Part shown: positions 5,821 to 56,094 of the stretch, one piece after another | Position numbering within the stretch: the first letter of the stretch is position 1 | Layout of the letters: every line of letters starts with the position of its first letter | NCBI GenBank assembly: GCA_044892525.1 | Contig: CM097886.1 | Span: forward strand, 129,518,001-129,582,000 | Origin: Schmidtea polychroa | Lineage: Eukaryota | Direction: 5' to 3' | Length of the DNA stretch: 64,000 nt | Notes under the pieces: generated by a model | Database searches by the model: none | What the model was told of the DNA's origin: nothing | Seen by the model: only the letters and a program-made list of their open reading frames with translations | Position numbers and translations under genes: made by a program

Positions 5821-5899
<79 letters not shown>

Positions 5900-9552: not shown

Positions 9553-9945
9553 CCCTCTCACGGTTTTTGCAAAAAAATTTTAATTTTATTAGAATTTAAT
9601 TTAAAATAAATTTTATTTTTTTTTAAAATGAAAAATTATTTTCAAAATATGGGGATTAAATATTAAAATTAATTACAAATTATAGAGACTTAATTTTGTT
9701 TTTAAATATCCGAAAAATATTGTCAAATAAATTGCTAATTTTAAATTTTTTATAATATTTTTTACACAATATGTGCCAAAAAATATCACCATAAAATTCA
9801 ATATTTCTGATAAAATGTTCAACTAGATAATTTTTATTCATTATGGTACTCCTTGTATTTTTTATATTTTCCCCCCAAATTTGTGTATTTTTAAACATAT
9901 TTTTCTTATTTTCCACCCAAATTTGGGTGTAAACCCGTGAAAGGG
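9553..9945. mobile_element. piggyBac-like non-autonomous element (copy at 38498-38891)
   Basis: TT(G)A|CCCTCTCACGG ... CCGTGAAAGGG|TTAA; internal hairpin CACCCAAATTTGGGTG. Confidence 0.7.
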
Positions 9946-14600: not shown

Positions 14601-15619
14601 TCAATTGAGTCATTTTCTGATCGGTGCTAACCATATTTGTTACCTTTGAGAGTTGAAAATTAATTACCTTTGTTTAACATTTACGTAAACACCAATATGG
14701 TCACCAAATTGTTTAACTGTAATTTATTCACTGTCTGAGACAGACTTTATTTTCACTTACATTTCAGTGAGAAATTCAGTAGAAAATATCGTGAGAAACA
14801 TTCCATAACATATGTCCATTGATATCCCAATAAATTGTCCTTTCTCTTGATAATATATTATGTCCTTCCGCCAAGTCTTTTGGTTATTGAAAAATATACT
14901 TTACATAGATATTTGCCTAACATCCGAAATATTTATCGCGAAATATTTATGAATTTCGAAAACAAATCTCGAAGGATGGACTATTTGACTGTATTCTATA
15001 GGTCTAATATAGGTCTTGATAATAGGTCTTCATATAGGTTAGTTATACAGTTTGTCCTTCATAACGAAAGTTATCTTAGGAATTAATGTGAAACTGGAAG
15101 AACTCATTAAAATCTGTAAATCGATATATTGTAAGAATAATTTCCCTTTGACTATCATACCATCGAAGTACAACTTGGTACACTCCTTGAATATCTTTGT
15201 AAAGAATACATTTTCTTTCACTTCATAGATGAAACTTTCAATGATATTCAAAGTTTTTCATTCATTATGAAGCCCAAAAATATTTTCATAGACAAATGTC
15301 ATCCATATTGCATAAAAAGTCTTCAGAAAATTTCTATTTCGAGGAGGATGATTCTAATGATTTCAAAACGGAAATAATTAATTTTATTTCTTTAGTGCCA
15401 TATTTAACAGAATTGCCTGCCTGCTTAATAAAATATAATTCTGAGGTTTTTGGATTACTTCTTGCTATTACCTCTTATCATGTTGACTGCCGTGTCAGCC
15501 ACCAGTGACCGACACCAAGGTATTCCAATTAGACCGGGTCTACCCCCGGAGGTCGACACGACATACCTAACTTTAGATTGTCATTTTGTTCCTTCAGTCA
15601 CGCGTTCTGTATAAACTAC

Positions 15620-31273: not shown

Positions 31274-31674
31274 AGGTTAGGGTTAGGGTTACCGCAACGT
31301 GAATTACCATAAATTACCGGTCCGCAACGTGAGTTGAATAGGAGGAAAATAATGCCAGACTATTATTAAACTGTTTACCCCTCGTAAAATAAATCATATG
31401 AAATATTACAACAAAACTATAAGCGTAAATTTAAATAATGTGCATTTCTCTCTCTGGATTCTTTGGAACATGAATGATGTCCATTATATAAATTTAGTGG
31501 GGGACTTTTATATTTTTCTACTTAAACTTTATGAAAAGTATATTATGTTATACAAATATGGAGTTGTTGTTTAAAATTATTGAAATTTCAAAATTAAATA
31601 ATAAACAGCAAACAAAAACCAGTTAATATATCATCGGCTCAGTTTAATTTTAAATATATTGAAAAAAATTACTC

Positions 31675-34600: not shown

Positions 34601-34846
34601 CTCTAATAAATCCATATTTGTCACTTTTTCTTTTTTATCATTTAATTTTTTTATATTTAATTTTAATTTTTTTTATTTAGTGAGTTGGCGCCGATTGAAA
34701 GAGGCGCCTACCGGCGCCTTTTTCACTCAGCGCCCTTGTGCGGGGCACAACATTCATCGGGGAAAGGAGCAATATCGAATGATTTATATAATTGTCTTTG
34801 AACATTTATTATTCAAATTCTTCCATTTTACCGATTTTGTCGGTTA

Positions 34847-34930
<84 letters not shown>

Positions 34931-36224
34931 ATATATAAAAAATTTAAGGGTCCCCTCCATCGGAATTTTACTTTTTATTTATTATTTTTTTAAATTTTTT
35001 TATCATGTATTTTTTCTTATGTACTTATTGTTGTATATTACTTTGAAACGATTTATGCTATTATCTTTTATCATAGTTATGTAAACATAATAATAAACTG
35101 AATCTTACTCCTGTCCAAGAATACCCTGGATATTTATTTTAACATTAACCCCACGTTCTAACGGGGTTGGTGAAGCGAAGCGAACAGGGGCAGAGCCCCT
35201 AGTAATAGCCCCTTGTTATTATTATAATTATCATTAGTAGTATTATTCTGATTATGATTATGTAGAACATGTGGAGGCCAAAGGCAGTCTCCAATCGATA
35301 TCACACCAAAATTCACAATTTATGTAAAGGATTTGAAGTTGCCCATCATTTACAGAATAAACTCCACTAATGATTTTGTAACAATTGACAAACGTTTTTC
35401 ATCAAGTACAAAAATTGCTGTTTTACTCATCTTACATTTTATTTATTGAAGTTTATCTTAACTTTTATGAAAATTGGAAAATAACCTTTGGGGGATATGG
35501 TTGTTTGAAACCGGTTAAAGTCCATTGGCATTGGGGATCAAATAACTATATTGGATCTGAACATAGGCTGCAAGGTACCCAATTTCCAATGGAAGGTCAT
35601 CTAGTGAGCTATGACTGTGATCTTTATACTTCCTTCCAGGAAGCATCAGTTTCACCGAATGGCCTCCATGTAATTGGTTTCTTTTACAGGGTAAATGTGA
35701 ATAGAACAATTTTCTTCTATTTCATCATTGTTCAGATTGGGTTAGAAAACCCTGAGATAGAGAAGATAATTAGGGCTATCAAACCGAAAACGAAGTTAAA
35801 AGAGTTTTCTGTCAATGTCACAGAAATTCCTCCTAAAGATTTACTCCCAAGAGAACTGATGAACTACTATAGATATGAGGGGTCATTAACTACCCCTCCG
35901 TGTACTCAAAACGTTATTTGGACGGTGTTACGATCTGTACAAGATATCAGCGAAAATCAAGTAAAAAATAATGCTTATATTACATAAAAAGTACATAAAT
36001 CCTTTCAGCTGTCTGTTTTCCGACAATTACTTTTCGGATATCCCGAAATAGGAAACTTAGTAAACAATTTTCGGCCAGTTCTCCCAATCGAAAAGTCAAC
36101 TGATTATATACTCCGAGTTGTCTATGCATCTTTCAATCACAGTTCGAAACTTGCAAACAATTTCATCTTATCTGCATTTATTTTATTATTTACATCCATT
36201 TTCAATAATTATTTACAGAAATAA
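31675..36224 (+). CDS. Alpha-carbonic anhydrase CA2; join(31675..31814,35266..35405,35452..35690,35736..35960,36009..36224), 319 aa
   Basis: Same exon structure and motifs as CA1; open frame with GT-AG introns. Confidence 0.92.
32648..34751 (-). mobile_element. Truncated hAT transposase (ZMYM/DUF4371-type) inside CA2 intron 1
   Basis: ORF pieces at 34230-33928, 33949-33737 and 33616-32531: LSGAQNKK, CLAFRGS..NGNFLKLI, FDTTPDISHTEQLAIVIRFV, RGQSYDNGANMRG, AAHSLNLV, WESR. GCGCC-rich subterminal region at 34685-34750; C-terminal dimerisation domain absent. Confidence 0.88.
34927..35202 (+). mobile_element. Helitron-like element, duplicate of 5891-6149
   Basis: Same 5' TATATAAAAA, hairpins and CTAG end. 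Confidence 0.55.
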
Positions 36225-39200
36225 GGTCCCATTTGGACAGACCTACACAGTATATTGCATAAAACCTATGTAAATGCATGTAAAGGTATAGCCCAATGCT
36301 GCTTTCTCGCTCATTTAAGAAGTCAAGTTCAGAAATATTAATAATATTTGTTTTTTAAATTGACTTTTTATTTAGATTTTTGTATTATATTATTAGATTT
36401 ACAAATAAAAGTGATTTTTTTATAGGAAATTTTTCAAAGTTCTCCTAAAATTTAAATTCAGACCAACCCAAATAATTCACTCCTTCACAGTTTTAATTTT
36501 TAAAAAATATAAATTTAAAAATCAAAATATCTAAAAAATAATATATTAAAATAAAAAAAATATTTCTTACCAAGACAAATAATTAAGTTTTCCACAGTTT
36601 GAATTAAAAATTAATTTTAATTTCAGAAAAATTTGATTTAAAAAGACCATAATATTAGAAATTAGAAAGAAACCGATAAAGGATAGAATTTTTTAAGAAG
36701 ATAAAAATTTTTAAAAATATGAACTATGAGATTATATTTTTTCAGACAACTTTATATTTAACTAAAAATCGCGCGAAAGTCAAAATCCGATTCTAGGACG
36801 TTTCATCCACGAACTGTTCATCTGATTATGATTCATCTCAAATTAACCAATAATCTATCTAGATAATTTTTATTTTATTTGGCTTTTTTGTTATATTTCA
36901 CTCACATATATGCACTTCAGCACTGCACCTCTGCACGATTTTTGCCTCTATGTCTGCACTCTGTATCACGATCTGATTAAAGTATCTGTCAAACTCGGAT
37001 CTTTACCATTGTTGACCACTGCTTTTCCACGGACTTGTTTTCATGCTTCCCTACTCAGTTCTGCATGAGCGATGCTTCTTGAGTCGATTTTGGTGTAACG
37101 ACCTCCATGCTTCCTCTGATTTTGAAACGATTCATTTACATTTCATTTCATCATATCGCTTGGGTGCTTGCTTGAGTGGTGGCTGCTTATTGTGGCATCG
37201 CTAATGTGTTGATGTTTCTTCGCGAAATTAACACTTGAGTTATTAATTATTAATAATAACTAACAAAGATTAGTATGGACTACTTGTGTTATTTGTAAAT
37301 CAGTAATATATCGATGTTTGTTGATACTCACGAATTGTCAATTCTCAATTCACTTGAAAAAGGCAGTGCCGAAAATCCGTGAGTATCATCAAACAACGAT
37401 ATATTACTGATTTATAGTCTCCAAAATCTTTTTAATAAATTCAATGGAAAAAATAATCAGTGGTGAAATTGGAAGAAATAAAAATTCTTGTAATAATTGT
37501 TATAATAATTCTTATAATTGTCACTGATAAAGGTCAATTACCTCTTCATGGCTTGTGACAACCATCTAGTACAGAAATATTTATTATATATTTCAAAAAT
37601 GATTTTTTATTTATGATTTTGTTTTAATGTTGATAAATATGCAAACGAAAGCCGAGTGCGGATGTTTATGTGAATGCTGAATGAATTATGTTAAAAAATG
37701 CATGTTTGAATTTATTATTTAAATTTATAGTAGATTTTTACGTTCTGAATCTCTGTCAATTTATTGTGAGATTATGTCGCTTTCGCCGATTAAAGTCAGT
37801 ATAAATAAATTTCTACATTGGCATATTGTATAATTTTGCAGGACATACTAAATTGATACAATGGACATATATATGGTACATTTTGGTATGCTGAATATAT
37901 TACATTTTGGGAAATACGGATAATGGTGTTGGCAGCAACGAATTTATCCCTTTGCGCTTATAACCTTTGTCAGCGATTGAAAGTTTATATTTGCACATCT
38001 TTTTTTATTTCATAAAATAAAACAAACAATTTTAAATGGTAAAAATGTAATAATAAAAAAATCATTCTTGATAGAATAATAATCAAGTTATATTATAAAT
38101 GTATATACATATTCAAATTCAATTTTGTTTTAATGCAATGGATGTTTATTAATACAAAGTTTATCAAATTTCGAAGTCATTGAATAGAAACCTTTATTTA
38201 GATCTTTTCTACTATTAAGGAGACTCGATATTTAGATTTCATTGTAACCAATGCAAAAAATTTACAACTTAAAATTTATTCACTATTATTATCTTGTGTA
38301 AAAAAAATTATGTAAAAAACATTTTTAAATTGCTTCGTTATATATAAAATTAATATATAAAATATTTAAATTAAACTTTGAATTAATATTAATTAAATCG
38401 AAATCGAAATAAATATATAAAATATAAACAACAATGAATTATTTTAATAGAATAAATGAATAAAATTTTACATTAATATTAAAAAATATATTTTTGACCC
38501 TCTCACGGTTTTTGCAAAAAAATTTTAATTTTATTAGAATTTAATTTAAAATAAATTTTATTTGATTTAAAATTAAAAATTATTTTCAAATTATGTGGAT
38601 TAAATATTAAAATTAATTACAAATTATAGAGACTTAATTTTGTTTTTAAATATCCGAAAAATATTGTCAAATAAATTGCTAATTTTAAATTTTTTATAAT
38701 ATTTTTTACACAATATGTGCCAAAAAATATCACCATAAAATTCAATATTTTTTGTTAAAATGTTCAAATAGATAATTTTTATTCATTATGGTACTCCTTG
38801 TATTTTTTATATTTTCCCTCCAAATTTGTGTATTTTTAAAAATATTTTTTCATATTTTCCACCCAAATTTGGGTGTAAACCCGTGAAAGGGTTAAGGAAT
38901 TAAAATTAAAATGTTCGAGAAAAAAACTATTAGCGCCCCCCCCCTTTGCACTAATCCATGCCTTCCAGTAATAAAATTGCTAAGTTATGTGATTCACGCT
39001 TCATCGTAATTATTCAGATAGGGTTAATAATGCGTTTTTAATTTAATTAAATCACAATAACAAAATATAAAACCAATAAATTATTTTTATAAAAAAAATA
39101 AAAAATATAGATTATTAAAATATATTTATAAAACTCACCATAATCTTTTCCATATATTTTCCCTATATTCTACGTTTATTACTAGAAATCTTCGAATAGC

Positions 39201-40149
39201 TGATATAAAATTTCAAATCTGACAATGAAAGTGGGTGAGTGTAAGAAGTTGTGAGTCCCCCATACTTATATTGGAACCGATACTATCGAATTATTGTTTG
39301 ATAAAATAAATAACAGGCGTGGATGTCACACTCAATAAATACCTACACAAATGCTCGCGGCCGTACACAAATATATCTGCCTCTAGGCACAAAATTGTGG
39401 ATGTTACGGTCGAACGATATAGTATGATTCATTTCATATATTTATATATATTTATATTTATATATTCTTTTTTTCAAGTATATTAAAAGTAAAAAAATAT
39501 TTACTTCAACTCTACTAAGCCCCACCACCCAAAACTACCATGTAAGTGAATATAATATAGCTGTGATACACTTTGGTGTGAAAATATTCATTTAAACACG
39601 CGTTTCATGGTGAAAATAATTTCCTATACCTCTGGCACATTATGAAACCTGAAAAATAATTATAATATTTACACCAAGGTATAATATTTTATTAATATTT
39701 ACGCTGCACAACATAATTTGAGATTCTAGTAGGTGTCTGACTATGGTACACCAAACGCCACTAAGAATCATTTCCTATAATATAAAAAAAATCAATAATC
39801 TTACATTATAGAAACATACATATTTACTTTGATTTCACGTTGATGTTCTCATTTAGAGTGCAGTCAGATACATCTTATACTATAGAAATCTGAAAAGTGG
39901 AAGACAAATTAAAATCTGCACACAAACAAACTTTTGATTTATCAAAATGCACCACTGAGACACGCTGAAAATTTTTTAAAATGTATTTTTAATGAAATTT
40001 CCAATAGCAGATGAATTTGGTTAAATGTCTTTTAATACAGATTTGCTTTCCTGTAAGAAGCCCCTACTCGGCGATTTTTCCCAAAATGTTTTATAGGTCG
40101 ATACGACATACCTAATTGCTGATTGTCATTTTGTTCATTCAGTCACGCG

Positions 40150-42357
40150 TTCTGTATAAACTACTATTAAACTTGGCCTATTATATTAAATTAAACCTTA
40201 AAACGTTAAAACATTTTTTGGGCATTTTATGAAAATCTTATTAGCAGTAATAAAAATGCATATTTTCTGTAAAGAAGCGAGTATTTTACCATTGACCTAC
40301 TGATTTTGAATGCATTCTATACATATTGATAAAGTTTTAGTGATATCAACATTCATTATTATTCCAATATTATTAGTTTTTTGATTATTTCTAAGCCGTT
40401 TTCATACACAGACGAGCATGGAACTTGTGGAGGCCTTTTATAATACTTTCTTTTTTTGCTTTAGGTACCATTAGCCTGTAAACTTCTTTATAATAGTGAT
40501 ATTAATAAACAACCTCTTACTCTCAAATTTATTTATGAGACCAAAATAAGGAAATATATGGACTTTCATTCTCCATTCGACCCCTACTTCTATTAGTTAA
40601 TCTCTCTTCTCTCATACATTTAATTGCTTTCTCAATATCGATATACCTTTCTTGTTTCCAGGTGATAATATGGACAAGGCATCTGTTCCTTTCCCTTTCG
40701 ATATCATATGAAATATTTGTAATCTTGCCTTCCTTGCGAAATTTTAAAATATATTTGGTCAATTCCGATTTAGTAGTCGTTTTAAATAATGAATAAATTA
40801 TACGACAAGTGTCAAAATTGCGAAACGATTTTCCTTTGTTATGCAATATTGTCTTTCATTTTTGAACATTTTTCATCTTGTATTTGTAATAATATTGTTT
40901 TCAAATGGTCATGTTTGTATAAAGAATTGTATCAAGTATATTGCTGTTTTCACTTGGTAATGCTAACACTAGAACTGATGATAATAATCTTTGAAATTCA
41001 TAAAAAGTAGTCTTTCTTTGTTCTAAACAAAGGTTATCTTCACCTTATACCTTTGCGCTTACTTTTCCAAACGTTCTTGCATAGTTTTTAATGAATCTTC
41101 GACAACAATTGCAAAATCATAAAAATATTTGCAATTCTTTTTTGCTCATTAGAATCATCCATTTGTGAATGGTTTTGATTTCGTAATATTATAACTATGC
41201 ACTTCCTTCTCCATGTGATTTGCGTTCTCAAAATAATAACCTTGTTTATTGAATATTATATAGTTTACTGACAAATTATAAGTAGCATATTAAATGAAAT
41301 ATTTTGTGTGGATTTCTATGGATTTTTATGAGTCTTATTGTGAAAAGGTTTGAGAAACGCTGAACTAAATTACCAACTATCTTTTATTTCAGAATGCACA
41401 GAGATATTAGTCAAATATTTTTAATTATTAGAATTTTGCAGCACTGACTGACAAAGCTAGAATATTTGATAAATAATTTATTAATAAAAATTATACTCTT
41501 CAATCACCAAATTCAGACATTGTATAAACAAAAAACTGCCAAAAGAAAGTCATTTATGATATAAATAATAAAAACAATCTAGTCATTCTACAATGAGTAC
41601 GAGGGTACAATGTTTGACAGCCAATATGACACCCTTGTCATTTTGATATTTTTAGCAAAGGACGTTCAGTTTTATTGATTATATTATGACTGCATCAATA
41701 AATATCGGATCTGGATCAGATTTCTGTATCAAATTCAATTTATGATCACCTTTTTATTCAAATGAGAAACGTCGGTTCTTTGAACAACGAGTAAAAATAT
41801 TTGAATAAAGTTTGAATCCCGCAATTTTTTATATGAAAACGCTATGATGTATTTTTGTCAAATAAGTGTTGAAAATTTATCAAGCGGATTTCTGCTCTTT
41901 CAAAATATGTATTTTCAACTCATTATTTTTTAGACTATTTTTTAGACTTCTTGGATATTCCTTGGATATTTGAGATCCTAGCATCAAACCAAATATCCCA
42001 AGAATATAGTCATTACCCATAAATGTATAATATTCTATTCCATTTTTATAATAATAATACGCAACACCGTATTGACCACAGATCCTCTTTATGGGTTTAC
42101 CCTCGTTTATCAGACTGTTTAACTAATTGCAATCTAAATTTCCAGTTTGTTTATTCTCCCTAGTCGTTTGGGTTCTCCATTGGCTCGGACTTCCCATTAG
42201 GTGGGGTGTTCCATTAGCCAATTAACTAATTAATAAATACTTTGTGTTTTTCCATTTTTGACTGTTTTTCGACCCTTTCTAAGCATTTTCTTGCTCACTG
42301 TCGTCTTCGCCAATCCCTATTCTACACCTCTCCCGTTTTCCAACTTTAATTTCGACA
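40150..42357 (-). pseudogene. Duplicate of the decayed Gypsy pol remnant, cut at 42357
   Basis: Colinear with 15620-17937. Confidence 0.7.
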
Positions 42358-42499
42358 ATTAGTGTCTAAAATGGGAATCCTAGGCCCCCCACCACAATAT
42401 TCGCTCGTAAAAAAAAACAAAACAAGTTTGTCTTTTTTATCCTCGCTCACCCTTCGGGAGGAGATGGGGCCACCTAGGATTCCCATTTTAGACACTACT
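42358..42499. repeat. 27-bp inverted repeat forming a 142-bp hairpin at the left end of the Polinton region
   Basis: A(T)TAGTGTCTAAAATGGGAATCCTAGG (42358-42384) pairs with CCTAGGATTCCCATTTTAGACACTACT (42473-42499), one mismatch. Confidence 0.9.
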
Positions 42500-43309
42500 A
42501 CAAATCTATGTATATTAAAATAATAATAATTTAAATATACATGTATAGAATGATTTAATAATTTTAAAATAAAAATAATTTCAATAATGTTGGGTACCCA
42601 AATTTTATTGGTAGCCAAGAATAATCAAGTTGTTATATATTATAGATGTAAGGATTTAATAATACAAGGATTTAATAATTTTAATATACACTACTAGACT
42701 TTAATAAATAAAAATATAAGTTACCAATAAAAGAAAAATTGAAAAATAATTTTTTTTTCATATTTATATTTAAAAAGAAATTATTAATTAGTTATTTTTT
42801 TTTATTTGTAATCTTGATGTCTTGAAGAATAAAAAAAATTTATGAAACAGTAAAACTGCTTTGAGAGGACAGTGGTATTTGTTTTTTTTTTCCAATGTCC
42901 TCTCAACAGTTTTTTTTTATCCGGATTATTTTTTATTTATCAATTTTTACCTCTTTCGGTTATCGAATCTCTTCCAATATACAAGCTGGTGAGACTCATA
43001 CATCAGAATCAATTCGATAATAGCAGCACGCCTTATTATTCGCTTCTCGCTCGAATACGATTTCATCGGCGTTTTAAGCGTGCTGCTCGAAAGTACAAAT
43101 GAATTCGAAAGCGAATCCGAAAGAGGTTCGAAAACAACCAAGAAATATTTTGAAATAAATGTGCACATTATGGGATTGATTCGGGGTGTGTCCGAAAGAC
43201 TGGTGGCAATAATTACCGGTTCGCCACCACACCCCGTTTCAATAATTTTATCAATAAAAGAAAAATATGAAAACATAAAAATTGAAAATTTGAAATTTTT
43301 ATTATAAAA

Positions 43310-44574
43310 ATGAACAATATAAATCTCGAGATTTCAGAAAAAAATAAATTAAATCTTGATTATGATAAACAGTTTATTCATGAAATCAAGAAAAATGATG
43401 TACTTAAAATTTGTCCAAACTCTGGTTTCATTTCAAATTTATATCGTTCAGGTGATATAGTTTTTCAATCTCTTCAAACATTAAACCCTATAGATATTTT
43501 AATGCAAAATTATATTACAAAATTGAATTAGAAATTGAAGCAAACAAGGATATAACAGTAGAAAATAATTTCTTCGCAAATTTATTCTCCAACATGAGAA
43601 TAAAATTAGGACCCTCAGAAGTTGAAAATATTTTGAATCCAGGTGTATATTCTACAATGTTAAATTTTGTTTTGACTGGTTGTGATTACAAAAATGAATA
43701 TGGTGAATTAACAAGTTGGATCCCTGATGTAAATAAAGGTGATATAGATAAAGATGGTTTAGATATAAATTATGGTTATCATAAACGTGTAAAAGTTTGC
43801 AAGTCTAAAAAATTTGAAGGTTATTTTGAATTAAAATATTTATTTGGATTCCTTCAAAACTATAATCGCATACTCCATAATGTTTTCATAGAATTATTTT
43901 GTAATAGAATAGATGATGATAAAGTATTATTCTATGGAGCTGCAGATACAAAAGGTAAATTAAAATTAACAACGATTGAAGTACACATACCCGAATGGAC
44001 ATTAAATCCACATGCTGAAATTAAATTACTTGAAAGATTAAAGTCCATAAATGTAAATTATTTAAATATTTAGTGTATTTGACATGAGAGAAGGTTCAAC
44101 ATATTCTATAAAGATTGCAAATTTAGCATATCGACCAAGATATATTTTAATTGGATTCAAAGAAATAGATCCATTCTTTCAAAAAAATAACAACTGGTTT
44201 ATTCAAAAGATTGGAGATGATAATTTAAAATAAATTCAAATTCAATCGAATAATAGTTATTATCAAGTAAATAGAATAGAGTTTAATATAGAAAACAATG
44301 AAAATATATTGCCATATGAAAATTATATTCAGACTTCAAAATAAAAGCACAATTAAGTTTAGAAGATTTCAAAAATTTGTTTTCTATATTCTGTATAAAT
44401 GTATCAGATCAAGATAATAGATTAGCTATAAATAATATTGATGTTACTCTTCATATAACAAAGGATTCTAATTTTAATGCAAAAATATATACATTAATTC
44501 TTGAAGAAAAGAAAATAGAAATGAAGTTATATGGTGGAAAGATTTCAATAATTGAGAATATTAGAGGAGATTAA
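43310..44574 (+). pseudogene. Polinton major capsid protein (double jelly roll), type B, frameshifted
   Basis: Reconstructed ..NLYRSGDIVF..ITVENNFFANLFSNMRIKLGPSEVENILNPGVYSTML..G..SWIPD..RPRYILIGF..FCINVSDQ.., which resembles the Polinton PY/MCP family. Confidence 0.7.
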
Positions 44575-44660
44575 GTTTAATTCTCCAAACTTTTTTGGAG
44601 AAATAAACAAGTTTTAGTAATAAAAGAAAATTATTATAATTAAATTTAACCTTTTTAAAA

Positions 44661-46211
44661 ATGACTACTAAACGTTATTGGAGATGTGAAACTTGTTGTT
44701 GTGATGTTACAACACATCATAAAGCGAGTCATCTTAAAACTAAAAAACACACATCTCGATTAATAATAATATTTCATCAAATAATAATATTCCATCAAAT
44801 AATTTTGAAGGTGAAATAATTTCTTTTATTACCAAAACAAGTTCTGGTAATAAAAGTTCATCTTCAAATAATATTCCATGGTTAGATTTCGATCCTTCAA
44901 GTAGATTTGCTTTGGAAAAACAGGGTGGTGATTTACAATCTTCAAAATTAACATCAACATTATTGAAACCCTTTACTACTGAAAAATATTCAGGTAAAAG
45001 ACATTCATTTAAACACAACTATACTGGACCTGGAACACGATTAGATATTAGACTTGATGAAAATAACAATTCCAAACAAGGAGAGGAACCAATAAATAGA
45101 ATTGACCAAGCTGCTTCGAAATATGACATTGCTTACAATTCAAAAACTCTTAGAGATAGACATATTGCTGATGTTAATTTAATACATTATTTAAATGATA
45201 TACAAAATCCATCAACACAAAAAAGATTCAAAGAGCTCTAGTTAAATTAGCAATGAAGGGTAAAATTTTCAAAGATGCAGGTCTACCAACAATGGCAAAA
45301 GATGTTGCTGATAAAAAGATTATTGAACAAGCAGACATTGAAAAGCATGTGTCCAAGACTAATTTATTAATCCAAACAGAATCACAAATAAAATATGCTA
45401 ACGAATTACACCATGAATTTAGAAAAAATAAAAAATATCTAAAAGTTCAAGTTTATGAAAAAGATCATACTTGGTCTGCTGATTTAGTCTTGATGCCAAC
45501 CAAATCATCAGACCCCGAAAAATATAAAATAATTTTAACTGTAATATATTTATATACAAGATTTGCTTTTGCAAGATGTTTAGAAAATAAAACAGGATAT
45601 TCTATTACAGAAACATTTGAAAATATATTTGAAGAATATCAAAAAATTCCAAAATATTTATAGTGTGATAAAGGAACAGAATTTTATAACGAAGGTTTTA
45701 GAAAATTTTTGCAAGAAAATGATATTAAATTATATTCAACAAAAAATGAAGGAAAAGCAGATGTAGTTGAAAGATTAAATAGAACATTAAAAAATAAAAT
45801 GTGGAAATATTTTACTGCCATTGGAAAACAAAAATGGAATAATGAATTATTACAAAGAATGATAAATGAATATAATAATGATGTACATAGCTCTAGAAAA
45901 GAAACACCTTTAAATGCTTCTACAAACCCTGAAGGAGTTAAAGAAATAAATATTGAAAATGGTGTAGAAAAAGGTTTTATGAGCGTTGATACAACACTTC
46001 TAAAACCAAAGTTTAAAATTGGTGATAGAGTAAGAATATTTAATATAAAAATAAATTTGAAAAACGATTCACAGCGAAATGGACAAATGAAATTTTTATT
46101 ATAAATAAAATACATCATACAATTCCAATGACATATGGTATCATCGATTTAAATAATGAAGAAATATTGGGTAGATTTTGCAATAATGAATTACAGAAAT
46201 CAAGTTTTTAA
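44661..46211 (+). pseudogene. Zn finger + parvovirus VP1u-like PLA2 domain + retroviral-type (Polinton) integrase; one ORF after repair of 4 lesions
   Basis: WRCETC..HLKTKKH; HNYTGPGTRLDIRL..PINRIDQAASKYDIAY..DRHIAD; ELHHEFRK..WSADLV..*CDKGTEFYN..VERLNRTLK..YNNDVHSS..KFKIGDRVRI..WTNEIF..NELQK. Confidence 0.8.
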
Positions 46212-46980
46212 CATTTTTCCAAAATTTTAAAAACAAGTTTTTAAAACAAGCTTTTCTGCATCTCATCACTTTTTCTATCCAAATAAATATAATTGTATTT
46301 TTTTTCCAGTGATTAGCAACAAACACATCAAACATGTACTTCTCAGGTTCAACATTTGAAAATAAATCACTATAAATCATATTCTTGTCACGCTTATCTA
46401 ATTTAAAAAAGATGAAACAATTGGAGTTGTTTCTAATTGAATTTTTATCCAAGGCATAATAAGTTTGAGAGATGTAAATCACATTACAATTATTATGACG
46501 TCCTCGAGTAAAATAATTTTTGTGAATTTCTTGATTTTTCATATTTACAACATCATCAAATATAACTAGATTCTTTTTATCTTTGGAAAGAAAATCACAA
46601 TACAATACATCTTCAGGTTTGTTGGAGAATAAAGTTTGTATTGATTCATCACTAATATAATCATTTTTATTAATAATATCTGACTCGGAAATCTCTTCCT
46701 TATACCAATCAACCATATCACATGGATGATATACTTCTTTAGGACATCTGTGTTGATTTTTAAAAATATCAATGATTGCTTTTTTAGTTAATTTATTTTC
46801 AAATCCATATTTCACAAGTTGTAGTTCTGGTTGGTTTATAGTTGTAGAATAAAATATTAAATTATTATAATCTAAAAACCCATCCTCGAGTAACATTCTC
46901 AAAAGAAGTGCATTCTTTCCACTCCCTGAAGATCCAACAATTAATAATCTAAAATTATCAGGAAAAATTTTATTATTAAA
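46212..46980 (-). pseudogene. Polinton A32/FtsK-HerA-like packaging ATPase, type B, N-terminus lost
   Basis: FRLLIVGSSGSGK (Walker A), LVIFDD (Walker B), YFTRGRHNNCNVIYISQTYY..IRNN. Confidence 0.88.
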
Positions 46981-47906
46981 TCCGATTTCTTTAAATGGTG
47001 ACTGGGAAGTTGTACTGCAAGATTTTACATTCGTGTACAACACATTCCCATTTTATAGTCAATGTAAGATTGATTTCAAAAGGAATGCTATGAAAACATG
47101 TAGTGGTATCTTTGTTATCAGTAATTATGATAAAACATCATATTCCAAATCAAATATTAGATCAGCATTGCTCTATGTTATACAAGGATGGATTAAATAT
47201 CAGTTGTGATTTTAAACCATTTACAATAACATTCGAAACTATTGAAGATGCCAAACGAATGGGTTGCAATAAGTTGAACAATAAAGTTATGGAAACATCC
47301 TATTTATTACGCTTTGATCTATTTGAAGCAAACAGTGTAATGAAAGAAGAAATCAAAATATCCGTGTCATATAATAATGAAGTTGAAGAATCATTCACCT
47401 TTGCTGACGAATTATATATTGATAAACTTGATGTGTTACTTAAATATTTAAAGTACAATTGTTCACATATATTTAAAAGTTTGGACATTGTGAAAGATTT
47501 GTTATTTACCTTCAGTTTGAATGATGAAGTTAATGAAGTTACATTTGATAAAAATTTGACAAATACACTTGGATTAGAGAAGCAACAATATCGGGAAAAA
47601 TCGGCTGGTTTACGTAAACCAAGAATATTTGAACATCATCAACAAATGTTCATATATACTAATATTATTGAGCCCATCATTGTTGGTGATTCCAGTGTTC
47701 CTCTATTGAAATCGGTGTGGATTGGAAGATATGAACACGACGAAGTTGTCAATATAAATATAGATAATCCCATGTATTTACCAATTTCAAGCTCATGTAT
47801 AAACAATATATAAATATATATTCGTGACGATAGTGGAAAACTAATAAACTTTCCGAAAGATTCGAAAACTCATTTGACATTAGATTTTCGTAAAGTAGAT
47901 GGCTAA
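46975..47906 (+). pseudogene. Polinton minor capsid/penton protein, type A, N-terminus lost
   Basis: PISLNGDWEVVLQDF..YN; MFIYTNIIEPIIVGDSSVPLLKSV..NPMYLPI..INNI*I.IRDDSGKLINF..HLTLDFRK. Confidence 0.75.
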
Positions 47907-48268
47907 TTCATATATAGTGATATATAGTGATATATAGTGATAGCCAATCTGGCGGTGAATTACTATATTTCGTTGGTAAACAGTACAGATCAGGTTGGTT
48001 AAAAACAATAGGGAGATTTGCATTACCTATTCTTAAATGTATTGGTAGTTTTGGTATGAAAACTGCTAAATACGTGATTATGAATGAACAGAAAATATTA
48101 CCATCCCTAAAAACAAATGCTTTAGCTGAGTTAGAGAAGGTTCTACCTGGAGTTGCTGGTATGTTTCAAAAAGATACGCCTCCAGCCCCAGCTCCAAAAC
48201 GTAAAGGCCATGGAATATCGCTTATAAACAAACGAATGAAAGGACATGGAACTATATTTGCAAAATGA
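47899..48268 (+). pseudogene. Small conserved Polinton virion (core/cement-like) protein upstream of the MCP
   Basis: MANSYIVIYSDSQSGGELLYFVGKQYRSGWLKTIGRFALPILK after removing one extra 10-bp ATATAGTGAT unit; basic C-terminus; its stop overlaps the MCP ATG. Confidence 0.6.
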
Positions 48269-48440
48269 TTTGTGGTAAATCCGAATTATGTATATTTGAT
48301 AGACCCTCGCCTCAAGTGGTAATCGAATTTGTGGCCTTTGAGGAAGTTTTTCCTATGAATTCAATTACTGATAGTAGAAATGATATCGGGTTTTATATTA
48401 ATGGTTCGCAAACTGAATATTTAGATTTGAACGATACTTT
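48265..48440 (+). pseudogene. N-terminus of a second Polinton major capsid protein (type A), truncated
   Basis: CGKSELCIFDRPSPQVVIE..FPMNSITD..IGFYINGSQTEYLDLNDT matches the C.KSELDLF..P.TQ.SIE..P...I.F.I.G....YLDL..T MCP start. Confidence 0.75.
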
Positions 48441-48873
48441 TGGCATGGTTGTTGTATAGAAAATGTGATGGTTAATAAATTTATATTGTATGCTTTGTTT
48501 TTTATTTAATAGGAAAGATGTTGACAAAGATATATATTTTATAATTTAAAAATAATATTCTATTATTATTATTATTAATATTATTATTATTATTAATATC
48601 ATTATTTTAATTTTATGTTTAACAAAATATGTTTATGTCATAAATTACGTGTTCAGTGCATGCACAGTGTAAAGTAACAAATACTTGGTAATAAGGACAT
48701 GAACTTATAGGTCATCATTAACTGCTTTGTATAAACAAACATGTAGTATGTGTGCGAATGTTTTGCTATTCCATCTCTATTTTCATTGGTCGGTTAATAA
48801 AACTTGCAATATCTCTCTTATATAGTCTACACTTTCATATTTTCAACACTTTTACAAAACTATTATATACAAC

Positions 48874-49167
48874 ATGAACATGAACAACATTAACAAAATT
48901 CAATAAAATAACGGAAAAACGTTGGAGGAATTAATGGTAAATTTATTATTTTATTATTTTATTATTTTAATATGATTATTAGGTTTTAATCAACAAATTA
49001 ATATGAATATCGGCGGATAAGCTGTAGACTTGAATAGAATAAATGGTAATCGTTTACTATTATTATCATTATTATTTTTATTATGTTTTTAGATGGAAAC
49101 GTAATAAATACTTTTGCTGGTTCTGCTGGTTCTGATGCTGGAAAATTTCTTTCGAAAGGACGAAAAT
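48874..49167 (+). pseudogene. Unknown spliced gene fragment with micro-introns (exons ..48936, 48983-49045, 49093-49167)
   Basis: GT-AG introns of 46 and 47 bp, symmetric phase-1 exons of 63 and 75 bp, and a GTAAGT donor at 49168; in-frame TAA in the middle exon. Confidence 0.5.
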
Positions 49168-49399
49168 GTAAGTATTTATTTATTGTTATAAGTTTTNNNN
49201 NNNNNNNNNNNNNNNNNNNNNNNNNNNNNNNNNNNNNNNNNNNNNNNNNNNNNNNNNNNNNNNNNNNNNNNNNNNNNNNNNNNNNNNNNNNNNNNNNNNN
49301 NNNNNNNNNNNNNNNNNNNNNNNNNNNNNNNNNNNNNNNNNNNNNNNNNNNNNNNNNNNNGACTTTGAAAAATATTTCATTGTAATTTTTTATTTAAAA

Positions 49400-51634
49400 T
49401 TATTTTAAAAAAATATTTCATAAAAATTAACATAAAAAATTATTTCATTAAAATTTCCATTAAAAACACCTTTAAAAAATTTTACATTTAAAATTAACTT
49501 AAAAAAATTTCCATTTAAATTTTCAATAAAAATTACATATCTCTAAAATGTTGGTAATAAATTTTGATAATAAATTTAAAAATCTTACTTTAATTTGCTT
49601 CTTTAAAAATTATTTCTTTAATTTACTTAATTTAACTTTAATTTAATTTTTAAGAACATCGATTACTTAATTAACTTTAATTTGGACTTTAATTTACCTA
49701 TTTATCCTTGTATTACTTAATTTAACATCATAATTTAATTAACAGCTAAATATAACCCTTATTTTCATATTTATCCAATAATTTCATGTGGTCATTGATT
49801 TATCCACAGAGATTTGCATCTAAAATTAACATTGAAAATCCCAGAAAAACTTTCATCTTAAATTGACTTTAACTTTAATATTTTAGATCATTGATTACTT
49901 ATTTTAAAAATTAAATATTAATTTACCTATTTAGCCAATAATTTCATGTGGTCATCTGGTCGTAAGTACATGATATCTAGTTGACAGTGCTTTGTACTTG
50001 ATATCTTGTACTTGGTAGCAGGTATCTGGTAGAAGTTTGTAAATACTTAGTACTTGGTTGATAATGCTTAATACCTGGTAGTTGTCGGTTGTGAGTATAT
50101 GGTATCTGGTAACTGGTTGTTATTATCTAATTGTAGGTATCTGGTTGTAAATACGTGTTCGTAAGTTACTGGTAGATGATACTAAATTGTTAGTATCTTG
50201 TACTTGGTAGTTGGTATCTGATTGTTGGTTTGTTGTTCAATTATTATTATTAAATATAATTATTAAAGTTTGTCTTTGAAAAATATTCCATAAAAATTTC
50301 CATTAAAAATTACTTAAAAAATTATTCCATAGAAATTTCCATTAAAAATTATCTTAAAAAATTTTATTTCTCAGAAGCTCTTGGTTATTCAAACTTTTTG
50401 TTAATAAATTTAAAAATCTTACTTTAATTTAATTATTTAAAAATTATTACTTTAATTTACTTATTTAACTATAATTTAAAATTTTTGGCCATTGATTATT
50501 TAATTTTAAAATTTATTATATAAGTTTTTCATTATATAATTTTTAGAACCTTAATTTACTATAATTCAAAAATTTTAGACCATTGATTAGTTTAATTAAC
50601 TTATTTAAACCATAATTTACTTTAATTTTAAATTTTAGACCATAGTTAACTTATTTGAACCCATTGATTACTTTAATTTAATATTTAGAGTCTAAATATT
50701 AAATTAAAGTAATCAATGGGTTCAAATAAGTTAATTATGGTCTAAGATTAAAAATTAAAGTAAATTATGGTCTAAATTAGGTAATTAAATTTTAGACCCA
50801 TCATTTACTTTAATTTAAAATTTGAACCTTAATTTACTTATTTCAGCCAATTCATTACTTTAATTTAAAATTTTAGACCATAATTTACTTTAATTTTTAA
50901 TTTTAAACCTTAATTTACTTATTTGAGCCCATTGATTACTTTAAATTTTAAATTTTAAACTTTAATTTACTTTAATTCAAAAATCTGAACCTTAATTTAC
51001 TTTAATTCAAAATTTTAGACCATAATTCAATTTTTAGGCCCATAATTTACTATAATTCAAATATTTGAGCCCGTAATTTACTGTAATTCAATTTTATTCT
51101 TAATTTACCATGCTTTTTCAGTGTAAACTATCATTTTGTATTGAAATTCTCAGGACCAAAGAGACCCACCTTAATTTACTTGAAAATTTCATGCTTTTTT
51201 AGTGATAATTGAATTTTGTATTGAAAATCACAGGACCAAGGAGACCCTCTCACTATAGTTTGAAAAATACTTGGCTTTTTGTATTGAAAAAAAATTTTTG
51301 TATTGAAAATCTCAGGACCATGGAGACCCCCTCACTTTAGTCTGAATAATCATTGGATTTTTTAGTGTAGACTACCTTTTTCTATTGAAAACTATCTTTT
51401 TGTATTGAAAATCCCAGGACTATGGATACCCCCTCGCTATAGTCTGAATAATCCATGCTTTTCTATTGAAGACCGCCTTTTTGTATTGAAAATCCCAGGA
51501 CAAAGGTGACCCCCTCACTATAGTTTGAAAAAAAAATTTTTGTACTGAAAATCCCTGAAAGCAAAAAAAGTAAGTTGGAACAATTACGTAATCAAAAGTT
51601 GGAAGTTGTTCCAGTGATGCCCTAACTACCTACT
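49400..51634 (+). repeat. Repeat-rich putative right terminal region of the Polinton: AT-rich tandem arrays, a palindrome, ~80-bp repeats and the terminus TAACTACCTACT
   Basis: ~30-bp AATTTTAGACCATAATTTACTTT units (50450-51100), TATCTGGT/TACTTGGT motifs (49960-50230) and GTATTGAAAATCCCAGGAC units (51130-51560). Confidence 0.7.
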
Positions 51635-54600
51635 CAATAAATTATATAGGAATAAAGTTTTCCCACTAGGTCCTACAACTTGATATACAGCATCATTTCT
51701 TAATTCCATATTAATTAAATTAATTTATCTAATTTGGTTATAATTAGAATCATATAAAATAATTATAAATAACATCAATTATGCTTAGTAGATGGAATGA
51801 AGATACTGGCAAGCAAACCCCGGCATGTTGTGGACAGAAGTTGAAAATATCCAATCTTATTATTCAGGAGCAGGCAATGTTCATGTTGGATAATTGGAAC
51901 CAATAATTGGAACCAATAATTGAAACCAATAAAGGAAGATGATCTCAAGTATCAGATTAAAGACTTACAAATTCAGTCAGTTACAGTAACCTTAGATAAT
52001 GTTACTTCTATTGATTTGCATATGGTGTCTGTGAAAGCTACTATAAACCAAAAATATTTGTGACTACTCAAGTACAATTCTTTATGTGTCAATGTTTTTG
52101 CAATCGGAAAAGTAGTGATAATAGGTATTGAAACCATGAATTACTATAACCAGGTTCAAGAAATATACATTTTTATCAAATCTATGATTTATATTCCAAC
52201 AACTGACGACAAAATTCTCGAATTTTTATTAAGTACAGAATGAGTTAGTTTCGTTGATTAATTTCGTTATTGATTCTGAATGTCCATATAATACATCACT
52301 CTGTTTGCCATCTTCTAAACTCCATACAATCATTATATGCTTTTCCATTTTGAAATTAATAAACGAATTTTTAAAACCTTTGTATTTTCAAAACAATCAC
52401 AAAACTTACCAAATTTAAACAACTGATATAAATAAAAAAAATAAAACTTGAAAAACTGACATCTCCAAAAAAATTCGAATATTAAACTCGACAATTGTCC
52501 GCGTCTGTGTGCGCACACAAATCAATCCAAATGTCAAAGCCAAAACAACGCGTACAGACGCGAAACACAATCTCACAATTCACCAATATGTATATCTTTT
52601 ATGTTGTTAGTTTTTGGTACACAGTATCCGATTAATTTTTCGTTGAGTTTTCAAAAAAAAATATTAAATTTGGTGTTTCTGACTCCACATGTTTTATAAA
52701 AACAATTAGACAATCAATACTCAACGTATATATGTATTCAAATTCGTATAATCCACATTCTACCAAACTCTGAATATTGCAATAAAGTATCTATTCGGAC
52801 TATTCGATAAGTCTCGCTGTAACCGCTTTGGTTCTGCACGTTCTACAATATATATGACCTCTTTTATTAATTCCTTTGACTTAATTTGATGTTTTCTTTT
52901 CTGTTCCGTTAATTCTATCTTATGATTTTAAAAATTTTCCTTTTACCTACAGTTGTTTTTTTCGTCCCTACCTGAGGCAAAATGCCAGTTTTTTCTAAAT
53001 TTGAGTTCCTTTATATAGTTAAAATACTCGCATTGATTAATGGCGTTTCTCTATTTGACAATCTTTGCCTGGCAGCCTTTTTCATTTTCTCGTTGTTGAA
53101 GGAAATAGTTAATTGTTCCACCTTGCATCTTCCCTGTGATAATCTTTTTTTGTTTTCCCATTACTCATGCTGCCATGATAATAGTTTTTCAACTTCAACT
53201 TTGTTTATTTCTCTTTATTTTCTGTTTTGTACGTTTCCTTGCATTTCGACCCTTTTTGAACTTAATCCGATAAATCCATCCTTGCCATGATCTTCCGCGT
53301 CATCTAATTGCATCTGACTCGTTTTTCAAATTTTAATTCGATGATTTGTTGATCTCTTGATTTTGAATTTTCCAATATTCTTTTTTTAATTACATAATTT
53401 AAAATTTAACAACCATAACATTTGTATTATCACTATTATTTTTTAATTATTCAAAATTTGCGAGAAATTTCCTACATTTGGGTAGTTGGATTCGAATTTG
53501 AATCACTGACTAATTATGTATATATGAAATTGGTAGGTAACTTTCGTAATCTAATGTTTATTTGCATACACGTACTCGTTTCAAGTGGCTTCACGAAAAA
53601 CTGCCGATTACGCAAAACAATGGTATTCAAACAGAAAGTAAGAAATGGGTAGTGGGCATAGCCCAGTTAAGGATCACGCAAAAACTTTCATTGACAGCAT
53701 GAAAGAAGCTTGACGTGTTATCCGTAAACATCGGCCTTATCCTCACGACAATCATGGCTACACCCACAACACCCACACTACCTAAACGTTTTCAAACAAA
53801 GAAATATTTAACCAATGCACTCGAAACAATTTAAGTAGTTTTCAAATATCGCAAAACTAATTGATATTGTTAGATGTGTCTCCCGCAACCCTGGGGTGCG
53901 GGTACCCCCAATTAAGAATTACTGCTGTACACTTTTTAAACTGAAAAGTGATAGAGTTCGGTGTATATACACGACTGACACGTTTACAACACAAAAACAG
54001 ATTGATCAAATTTTAGAATTAAACTAGTGCGCATTTTTCAACTTAACATGCATATATTGTACTTACTAAAAACATTCGGTTTAAGAGCAATTGTAGAGTT
54101 TGCATTGTGTTCAATTTGTTTTAATCATCACATTTTAATGTTTATTACACAAAATATATGAATAGTGTTTTTTGTTGAATTTAAAAGTATCACATTTAAG
54201 AAATCAAAGGAAATCTCCCGCCATATTAGGTTAGAAAAATCTTTGATAACTCTGTTTCATAACACGGACTTCTTGTGGAAAACGGTGTCTATGTTCATTT
54301 CATTGGAAGAAGAGCCAAAGACAATTGCAATATGTCTTTTTTTTGAAAACATATTTTTCATTCATTTTAACCTTATAAATGCGAATTTTTAAATTTATTT
54401 GTACACTTTTTTGAAAAGTTGCAATGAATAAGGCATTTCCAATCGTCCCCCTCATTCGTAGACAAAATTTGTCCATGACATATATTTGTTGCACCTTGCA
54501 TTTCTTAAAATATTGATAGGCATTAACAGCACCACAATAACGATTTAAATAGTTATCTTTAAGCACTCAGAGTTTTGGTAAAGAATTTTGAAATAATTTT

Positions 54601-56094
54601 TTGTCTGAAAATAAATATTTTTTCTATCTTTTTTGCTACAAAAATAATTAAACTGTCAAAAATTAAAATTTCAATTGATACAATTTTATAATGAGAATAC
54701 AAATGCAAAATGCAAAATTTACTTAATGAAAATTTGTGTTTATTTATTTATTTTTAATTCAGAATTTTCATTGTTTCTAATAATCTGACATTCATGTTGT
54801 TTCTCATTAGCTGTCAACTGATTTTTATTAGTAATAATAGTAATAATAATAATCATAATAATCATAAAAGCAAAAGGCTTAAATTATCNNNNNNNNNNNN
54901 NNNNNNNNNNNNNNNNNNNNNNNNNNNNNNNNNNNNNNNNNNNNNNNNNNNNNNNNNNNNNNNNNNNNNNNNNNNNNNNNNNNNNNNNNNNNNNNNNNNN
55001 NNNNNNNNNNNNNNNNNNNNNNNNNNNNNNNNNNNNNNNNNNNNNNNNNNNNNAAATTATCATTTTATTGTTTTAAATAATAAATGCTGCTANNNNNNNN
55101 NNNNNNNNNNNNNNNNNNNNNNNNNNNNNNNNNNNNNNNNNNNNNNNNNNNNNNNNNNNNNNNNNNNNNNNNNNNNNNNNNNNNNNNNNNNNNNNNNNNN
55201 NNNNNNNNNNNNNNNNNNNNNNNNNNNNNNNNNNNNNNNNNNNNNNNNNNNNNNNNNNNNNAATATCAAAAGATGTACGAAGTATTTTAAATGGCTTATA
55301 AATCAAAGAGTAAGCAAACTAATAAAAAATGCAATCAATATTGAGATTCAACTAATTAAAAGTAATTGTCCAGGTGTAAAAAAAAGGGTTAACGAACGAA
55401 CATTCAAAAAGTGAATATTTATTTCGCGTCTATGATATTATTAAAGAATCGCCGTAAAATTCATAAGCGTGGCGATAAACAACAAAAAACAAAAATCAAA
55501 GATAATGAGATGGTAACAATAAAAGAGCAAATAGAATTGGAAACATATGAATGAATTGATTAAAATGAATTGCAAGAATTGCCGCTACCAAATAATTTTT
55601 CATAGCTTCCAATTACTTCGATGAATGAACACTTTGAATCTCTTTGGGAAGATGAATAATATATGCTGCAGCGACTATTGCGAGCAAGTAATTATTTTAT
55701 AATATTTTATTATTGTTGAGTGTGACTAGTACCCTTGCAACCAGTACCCATAGGGGTCAAAATATATTGTCGGATACCTTGCTTAGTTGTTCTGCGCGCT
55801 ACGATTCTGCGCTCAATAGTCGGAGTGCCATATATATTGCAATACATTTTTTGTTTCAAACTTTTAATTGAATTTGAATTCTGATTTTAAATAATATTTA
55901 AATGTTTCATGATTTTCATGTTTTTTAAAATGCAGCCTTTTCCTAAATATTTTTCTATTTTTTTGATACGTTACGCTTGATTGGGAAAAGGGTTGTGGCA
56001 TTCTGTTTCGATTTGTCACAATATGGTGTGCGGGGCAAAAGGCCTAGTTTTAGCGTTACATAACAAACGAACGTTTCCTTATTGAAAAATAATA

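What the first reader, a model, noticed from the sequence alone, without database searches (positions are those of the whole stretch)
44661..46211. Zinc finger-PLA2-integrase fusion ORF in an endogenous Polinton/adintovirus
Four small lesions separate the pieces: an extra CA dinucleotide at ~44750, an extra A in the A6 run at 45219-45224, a TAG at 45661 (likely TGG) and a 1-bp loss at ~46040. Repairing them gives one ~515-aa protein: C2H2 finger, N/S-rich linker, a QGG protease-site-like motif, a parvovirus VP1u-type PLA2 (YTGPG..D.AA..(H>Y)D..Y), the helix RALVKLAMKGK, then a DDE integrase. PLA2-like ORFs are reported in adintovirus-like genomes, but I do not know of a described fusion to the integrase. 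It would imply a virion-packaged polyprotein linking endosomal escape to integration.
Basis: partly seen in the sequence, partly recalled or inferred. Interest (0 to 1): 0.75.

Follow-up and report, generated by a model that had tools for sequence, protein, structure and literature searches.

The report
Phospholipase–integrase fusion in a Polinton virus
This broken copy of a virus-like jumping element carries a gene that, in many intact relatives, joins a phospholipase-type domain to the integrase in one protein that is likely packed into the particle and cut apart by the virus's own protease; the fusion is already labelled in two deposited virus genomes but is far more common than that suggests.

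Summary
The fusion is real. Four collinear pieces at 44661-46211 match uninterrupted natural proteins (C2H2 finger, parvovirus-type PLA2, rve integrase) at 78-84% identity. This copy is dead: three frameshifts, one stop, Tyr at the catalytic His.

It is not new as a label.

Not found in print:
- Breadth: 63 of 120 listed integrase relatives are fused, in 33 clusters.
- PLA2 His-Asp-x-x-Tyr is invariant in 33 of 33 aligned proteins, under purifying selection.
- A GG/GxG motif marks the junction in 26 of 31 clusters, background 0.7%. These are the motifs the mavirus protease cuts, and mavirus virions contain integrase.

Best reading (0.62): a virion-packaged precursor cut by the viral protease into entry enzyme and integrase. 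Packaging, cleavage and activity are untested, and split relatives exist.

The parts
44661..44753 (+). Start codon and C2H2 zinc finger (U1/jaz-like); followed by the first frameshift
   Evidence: 78% to P0009 residues 3-29; no Pfam hit for this 31-aa piece; intact relatives L004 and L006 hit zf-U1 at E ~8e-4, below the cut-off
44754..44923 (+). N/S-rich linker, variable in length among copies; longer here than in the closest relatives
   Evidence: joints skipping 36-177 nt
44921..44929 (+). QGG: candidate protease site before PLA2
   Evidence: GG in 12 of 17 aligned proteins with at least 30 residues upstream; low-confidence loop 30-46 in the P0001 model; cleavage inferred
44930..45261 (+). 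Parvovirus-type phospholipase A2 domain, split by a frameshift near 45220; Tyr at the catalytic His position in this copy
   Evidence: PF08398 E 4.8e-6; 83% to P0009 residues 35-137
45262..45282 (+). PLA2-integrase junction; GG/GxG in intact relatives, degraded here
   Evidence: 29 of 31 informative rows of A2; 26 of 31 informative clusters; low-confidence 153-155 in the model
45394..46211 (+). rve (DDE) integrase without chromodomain; in-frame stop at 45661-45663 and a frameshift near 46045
   Evidence: the P0001 model matches foamy virus and MELD virus integrases; no PF00385 in P0001-P0005
43310..44574 (+). Double jelly-roll major capsid gene, broken in several places
   Evidence: PF21738 E 5.8e-11; 35-50% to L002 and L006 capsid proteins in several frames
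46141..47052 (-). A32-like packaging ATPase, convergent with the fusion gene
   Evidence: PF04665 E 1.9e-9; 46-52% to the L001, L003, L006 ATPases
46871..47908 (+). Probable penton (minor capsid) gene, broken
   Evidence: No Pfam hit; weak tblastn match to an L006 ORF, E 2e-4; motif resemblance recalled, not tested
47921..48268 (+). Small basic ORF with a GG motif, probably a core protein
   Evidence: no Pfam hit; the likeness to Maverick PZ is recalled, not tested
48205..48459 (+). Start of a possible second capsid-like gene; the element copy is cut off here
   Evidence: laid depth falls about 20-fold in X1 after 48448; the capsid likeness is recalled, not tested
42360..42497 (.). Short 25-bp perfect inverted repeat with an ACT-ACT-like end, at the point where a duplicated host segment stops; possible remnant of an element terminus
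   Evidence: AGT/ACT end motifs of Mavericks in PMC8097293; link to this element not shown

Best explanation
The stretch is a dead copy of a Maverick/Polinton (adintovirus) gene that in intact relatives is one reading frame, zinc finger-PLA2-integrase, whose product is likely a virion-packaged precursor that the element's adenain-like protease is predicted to cut at Gly-Gly/Gly-x-Gly sites. Shown: one ORF in many relatives; catalytic residues of both enzymes conserved; Gly motifs at the domain borders; two deposited genomes with this fusion also encode adenain. Inferred: the integrase occupies the place of the basic, pX-like tail that follows the same Gly motif in stand-alone PLA2X genes; the precursor is packed with the DNA (the finger perhaps helping in this subclade); maturation frees PLA2 to breach the endosomal membrane, as in parvoviruses, and leaves integrase on the genome to insert it on arrival, as proposed for mavirus. 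It would work like a retroviral Pol precursor in a DNA virus.
For: Uninterrupted PF08398+PF00665 proteins: 5 hits among 46 candidates, the best 80% identical to the window PLA2 piece. 14 of 25 metagenome loci show the junction in one frame, and 4 are complete finger-PLA2-integrase ORFs. 25 of the best 150 representatives and 63 of 120 listed integrase relatives (34 of 120 by precomputed Pfam) are fused. HD..Y in 33 of 33; the integrase D, D, E in every row that covers them (32, 31, 31 of 33). dN/dS for PLA2 is 0.06-0.31 in 15 of 15 pairs, like the integrase. GG/GxG at the junction in 26 of 31 clusters against 54 of 7259 background windows. The model has confident domains and low-confidence linkers at both sites. 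Mavirus protease cuts GG|X and GX|G, and mavirus virions hold the integrase and a cleaved predicted hydrolase (PMC6048507 passages). Adinto6405 and Adinto15303 encode adenain. Some stand-alone PLA2s end at or just after this site; P0295 ends on GG. Other virion-gene fusions use similar joints: protease-GG-integrase P0256 and ATPase-PLA2-integrase P0172.
Against: No cleavage, packaging or enzyme activity was tested. No protease gene was found in the window or in loci that carry the fusion. Only 5 of 31 junctions fit the strict adenovirus consensus with a hydrophobic P4. 5 of 31 clusters lack the motif within 16 residues, including the representative of the largest cluster (25 members), where many members have Gly motifs slightly downstream or none. 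The motif could simply be inherited from PLA2X, or be a flexible hinge. Split forms exist (L020-L023; up to 9 of 16 short hits; BK012049 and uAdinto16360), so fusion is not required. The junction motif is degraded in this copy. The fold match of the PLA2 module is weak (rice PLA2, Z 7.0, rmsd 4.7, 91 aligned; Foldseek E 0.22).
Confidence: 0.62

Rival explanations
1. The fusion protein is packaged but works uncut, as a tethered two-enzyme protein; the Gly motifs are flexible hinges left over from PLA2X.
For: Most junctions miss the strict adenovirus P4 residue (5 of 31 fit). Some fused clusters lack the motif. Parvovirus PLA2 works while attached to VP1 (established knowledge).
Against: The motif is kept across proteins about 30% identical, while linker length varies from 8 to over 200 residues. 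Mavirus protease cuts GG|X and GX|G. Some stand-alone PLA2s end at the site.
Confidence: 0.17
2. The fusion is only genome compaction: the gene is co-expressed, but integrase acts after new synthesis or from an internal start, and is not delivered by the particle.
For: Many related integrases have short N-termini and no PLA2 (74 'short' and 61 unfused of 165 clusters). Adjacent separate PLA2 and integrase genes exist, so loss of a stop could fuse them neutrally.
Against: The fusion is kept over a broad clade (22 fused, 1 unfused, 10 short; support 0.94) and appears in other parts of the tree. No conserved Met is seen at the integrase start in A2. PLA2 is under selection inside the fusion.
Confidence: 0.13
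3. The break in the A-run near 45220 is a programmed frameshift that sets the ratio of PLA2 to PLA2-integrase.
For: An A-rich run lies at the break, and retroviral gag-pol offers the analogy (recalled).
Against: The closest relatives are uninterrupted there. The break lies before the last PLA2 helix. Other copies differ by an indel at this place, and an X9 contig bridges it with one gap. The neighbouring capsid and penton genes are broken too.
Confidence: 0.03
4. The fusion is an artefact of joining separate, decayed neighbouring genes.
For: This copy has four breaks, and stand-alone PLA2 genes exist in relatives.
Against: An uninterrupted natural protein matches all four pieces at 78-84%. Complete ORFs are seen in the DNA of L001, L003, L004 and L006, and two published genomes carry the fusion.
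Confidence: 0.02

Closest known systems
'PLA2-Integrase' of Adinto6405 (BK066529) and Adinto15303 (BK066759), supplement of Buck et al. 2024, PMC11071296
   Same: One ORF with GG near the N-terminus, parvovirus-type PLA2, a GxG junction and an rve integrase without chromodomain, in genomes with hexon, penton, packaging ATPase, PolB and adenain
   Different: Those two lack the N-terminal C2H2 finger. They appear only as labels in a supplementary protein file; no discussion of the fusion, its breadth or its processing was seen in the main-text passages
PLA2X of Alpha adintoviruses / CAP of Sf Mavericks (PMC8502044; PMC5803895)
   Same: Same PLA2 family and the same K-x-x-x-G-x-G end of the domain
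   Different: PLA2X is a separate gene with a pX-like tail. Here the integrase follows, and pX is a separate gene in L001 and L006
Mavirus virion proteins MV02 (rve integrase) and MV13 (predicted hydrolase), PMC6048507
   Same: Integrase and a predicted hydrolase in the particle; a protease that cuts GG|X and GX|G
   Different: Separate genes; an alpha/beta hydrolase rather than PLA2; a virophage of a protist
Retroviral Gag-Pol/Pol precursor (established knowledge)
   Same: Integrase predicted to be delivered as part of a protease-processed precursor; same integrase fold
   Different: A DNA virus with a jelly-roll capsid, a cysteine protease, and an entry enzyme rather than reverse transcriptase as partner

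Membership tests
Maverick/Polinton (adintovirus) | rve integrase | tested here: met
   rve E 1e-9 with X at the stop; D, D, E present
Maverick/Polinton (adintovirus) | A32/FtsK packaging ATPase | tested here: met
   PF04665 E 1.9e-9
Maverick/Polinton (adintovirus) | Double jelly-roll major capsid protein | tested here: met
   PF21738 E 5.8e-11
Maverick/Polinton (adintovirus) | Single jelly-roll penton | tested here: inconclusive
   No Pfam hit; weak tblastn match, E 2e-4
Maverick/Polinton (adintovirus) | Protein-primed PolB | tested here: inconclusive
   None found in 42301-54882, but the copy is truncated and the scan of long X-read frames is insensitive (it also missed the ATPase and capsid); no genome is held
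Maverick/Polinton (adintovirus) | Adenain-like cysteine protease | tested here: inconclusive
   Not in the window or in the short loci with the fusion; present in both published genomes with the fusion
Maverick/Polinton (adintovirus) | Terminal inverted repeats and 6-bp target-site duplication | tested here: inconclusive
   Only a local 25-bp inverted repeat at 42360-42497; no partner at the right end
Parvovirus-type PLA2 (PF08398) | Profile match above the curated cut-off | tested here: met
   27.2 bits against 23.9; 27-40 bits in P0001-P0005
Parvovirus-type PLA2 (PF08398) | Calcium-binding loop Y/F-x-G-P-G | tested here: met
   Present in the window; G69 in 31 of 33 and P70 in 30 of 33 aligned rows
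Parvovirus-type PLA2 (PF08398) | Catalytic His-Asp, in this copy | tested here: not met
   Tyr at the His position here; His-Asp in 33 of 33 relatives
Parvovirus-type PLA2 (PF08398) | PLA2 fold | tested here: inconclusive
   Top match in both searches is rice PLA2, but weak: Z 7.0, rmsd 4.7, 91 aligned; E 0.22
Parvovirus-type PLA2 (PF08398) | Phospholipase activity | not testable with these tools
   Needs an assay
PLA2X (Starrett et al. 2021) | Stand-alone gene with a C-terminal pX-like domain | tested here: not met
   The integrase follows in frame; no PF05829 in P0001-P0005; pX is a separate gene in L001 and L006
'PLA2-Integrase' (Buck et al. 2024 annotation) | PLA2 and rve integrase in one ORF with a Gly junction | tested here: met
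   Closest relatives P0001 and P0009 against the labelled proteins read; compared by eye, not aligned
Adintovirus integrase as defined in PMC11071296 | C-terminal chromodomain | tested here: not met
   Absent in this subclade; present in other fused proteins such as P0205 and P0036

The most novel reading that the evidence does not exclude
PLA2-integrase is a common and probably repeatedly evolved architecture of animal-associated Mavericks/adintoviruses. It is a retrovirus-style precursor that the viral protease cuts inside the particle, so entry enzyme and integrase arrive together one to one. The fusions would then be sequence-level evidence that Mavericks form infectious particles that carry their integrase.
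Probability: 0.5. Interest if true: 0.65.

Novelty: new member of a known kind. Interest (0 to 1): 0.45.

Why it matters
Maverick particles had not been observed (PMC8097293 abstract), and how their integrase reaches the first host cell is open. A fusion to a presumed entry enzyme, with conserved protease-type sites, predicts that integrase is a virion protein. It names an exact cut that can be tested in a tube with two natural proteins. It also matters for annotation: about half of the closest listed integrase relatives carry an N-terminal PLA2, and the few source names seen were 'hypothetical', 'transposase' or 'YMD3-like'. The copy in this window adds nothing functional by itself.

Tried and rejected
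No genome is held, so intact copies in the host assembly could not be searched.

IMG/VR: no relative with P0001, A1 or A4. A3 gave 16 loci matching only the PLA2 part, so no complete element with the fusion was recovered. A2 was too diverse to search with. Prokaryotic genomes: nothing.

Expression: no RNA holder listed. Run X8 is only guessed to be RNA, so it was not used as evidence.

The ATAAAC box at 44603, upstream of the start codon, was rejected as evidence. It occurs 11 times on both strands in 6.3 kb, about what this AT-rich sequence gives by rough composition; no shuffle was run.

Programmed frameshift and chance juxtaposition were rejected (see rivals).

A whole-protein fold search returned almost only integrases; the PLA2 module alone gave only weak matches.

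The tree (15 changes against a shuffled minimum of 18) counted probable fragments as unfused and was replaced. No one-clade test was run, so repeated origin is a lead.

Literature: 10 searches showed no main-text description of the fusion in the passages read. The label turned up only in a supplement. The Starrett 2021 supplement and files 1 and 2 of Buck 2024 were cut when stored, bioRxiv supplements are closed, and Repbase could not be searched, so more annotations may exist.

Earlier scan notes: nothing on this fusion by sequence or words.

Full report
Observation. The six-frame translation shows four pieces in order on the + strand: a C2H2 finger from the ATG at 44661; a linker, QGG and PLA2 core to 45238; the last PLA2 helix and the integrase, with one in-frame stop at 45661-45663; and a last piece ending at 46211. 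Pfam gives PF08398 for the second piece (E 4.8e-6) and rve for the third (E 0.0016; E 1e-9 with X at the stop). The natural uninterrupted protein P0009 aligns to all four pieces at 78-84% identity. The copy is dead: besides the breaks it has Tyr at the catalytic His, a degraded junction motif, and broken capsid and penton neighbours. The first lesion lies in a linker whose length varies among copies.

Setting. The gene lies between a double jelly-roll capsid gene (PF21738) and a convergent A32 ATPase (PF04665), followed by a probable penton and small ORFs. The copy is cut off near 48455. No polymerase or protease was found, in a scan that was insensitive. The family is very high-copy in organism A. 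Earlier scan notes call the genome animal and flatworm-like, and rich in Polintons; these are unchecked leads.

The fusion is real and common. A search among longer proteins gave 5 hits among 46 candidates, all with PF08398 and PF00665. Of 25 metagenome loci, 14 show PLA2 running into integrase in one frame, 4 are stand-alone PLA2 (three near-identical, plus L022 beside a polymerase), and 7 end too early to tell. L001, L003, L004 and L006 are complete finger-PLA2-integrase ORFs. Of the best 150 representatives at 50% identity, 25 are fused; that query held both domains, so the share is biased upward. With the integrase frame as query, which still holds about 25 residues of the last PLA2 helix, 63 of the 120 listed (of 328 found) carry PLA2 by my profile and 34 by precomputed Pfam. 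Of 294 stored proteins, 107 are fused, in 33 clusters at 60%. The ESM Atlas holds clusters of 184, 111 and 72 members with both families, at scores of 0.82-0.85, which count as leads only. The finger is limited to a subclade (2 of the 63, plus loci and proteins).

Both enzymes look alive in relatives. His-Asp-x-x-Tyr is present in 33 of 33 aligned proteins, and the integrase triad in every row that covers it; HD..Y was found in 55 of the 63. Pairwise dN/dS among six loci is 0.06-0.31 for PLA2 (15 of 15 pairs), 0-0.33 for integrase (12 of 15; 3 saturated) and 0.12-0.77 for the finger (13 of 15). The pairs are not independent. The P0001 model (pLDDT 82) has confident domains and low-confidence stretches at 30-46 and 153-155. 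It matches foamy virus, MELD virus and mavirus integrases. The PLA2 module alone folds well (pLDDT 90), and its top match is rice PLA2, though weakly.

Mechanism. A GG or GxG motif follows the last PLA2 helix in 29 of 31 informative rows and in 26 of 31 informative clusters, against 54 of 7259 background windows. A GG precedes PLA2 in 12 of 17 rows with an N-terminal extension. Mavirus protease cuts GG|X and GX|G, and mavirus particles contain the rve integrase and a cleaved predicted hydrolase (PMC6048507, passages; PMC6428243, passages). Stand-alone PLA2X proteins have the same motif before a basic pX-like tail, and in L001 and L006 pX is a separate gene. So the integrase appears to sit where the tail was. 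Among 16 short relatives, up to 9 end at or soon after the site without integrase, 2 run into the integrase start, and 5 are otherwise truncated or chimeric; without DNA, stops cannot be told from contig ends. I infer a packaged precursor cut during maturation. Against it: only 5 of 31 sites fit the strict adenovirus consensus, 5 of 31 clusters lack the motif, split forms exist, no protease gene was seen beside my own examples, and nothing was assayed.

Origin. On a FastTree integrase tree of 165 clusters, fused and unfused states change 8 times, against a shuffled minimum of 19, with short-N-terminus proteins left uncounted. Most fused clusters lie in one clade (22 fused, 1 unfused, 10 short; support 0.94), and others lie elsewhere. 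That fits either repeated fusion or an old fusion with losses. No one-clade test was run.

What is known. PLA2 genes of Mavericks are described as separate genes: PMC8502044 (sections 3.1 and 3.2, passages, cut supplement), PMC5803895, PMC4642659, PMC3671162, PMC11296320 and PMC7805220 (passages), and bioRxiv 2026.06.19.733378 (passages and one section). PMC12220804, bioRxiv 2022.07.28.501842 and PMC8097293 were read as passages; PMC4028283 returned no matches for my terms. None of these passages describes the fusion. But the protein file in the supplement of PMC11071296 labels two complete adintoviruses 'PLA2-Integrase'. I saw all 59 'PLA2' places in the stored, cut file. Both genomes encode adenain, PolB, ATPase, penton and hexon and are deposited as BK066529 and BK066759. 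The main text was seen only as passages and section 16, with no discussion of the fusion. Repbase and uncut supplements could not be seen.

Verdict. It is a new member of a kind already catalogued by label, with a zinc-finger prefix. Its breadth and the processing model were not found in print. Interest 0.45; if packaging and cleavage are shown, about 0.65.

Noticed in passing
P0256: A natural adenain-like protease fused through a GG motif to an rve integrase (ASFV pS273R hit E 0.0032; Peptidase_C5 clusters at 0.92).
   Followed up: partly
P0172: A natural 757-aa ATPase-PLA2-integrase triple fusion; a single record, DNA not seen.
   Followed up: partly
window 43310-44574 and 48205-48459: The element may carry two different major-capsid-like genes; the second label is recalled, not tested. 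Duplicate hexons are mentioned in PMC11071296.
   Followed up: no
window 42360-42497: A 138-bp unit bounded by a perfect 25-bp inverted repeat with Maverick-like end letters, inserted where a duplicated host segment ends.
   Followed up: partly
window 4643-17939 and 31626-42358: A segmental duplication of host DNA at 92-97% identity, including a carbonic anhydrase exon at 6322-6927 and 35382-35987.
   Followed up: no
window 25012-27077; 32531-33652: A decayed LTR-retrotransposon pol (RT, RNase H, integrase zinc finger) and a DUF4371 ORF.
   Followed up: no
P0052, P0302, P0303: In other relatives a different Cys-rich module (DUF5679) precedes the PLA2, so the N-terminal module looks exchangeable.
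   Followed up: no
window 43200-48600: The element family is very high-copy in organism A: 28,580 contigs laid in X1 and 5,490 in X2, mostly 90-99% alike.
   Followed up: partly
Supplement of PMC11071296: Labels such as PLA2X-Adenain, Adintoc3-PLA2X and Adenain-PLA2 show PLA2 joined to other virion genes too; some may be proposed frameshift products.
   Followed up: no
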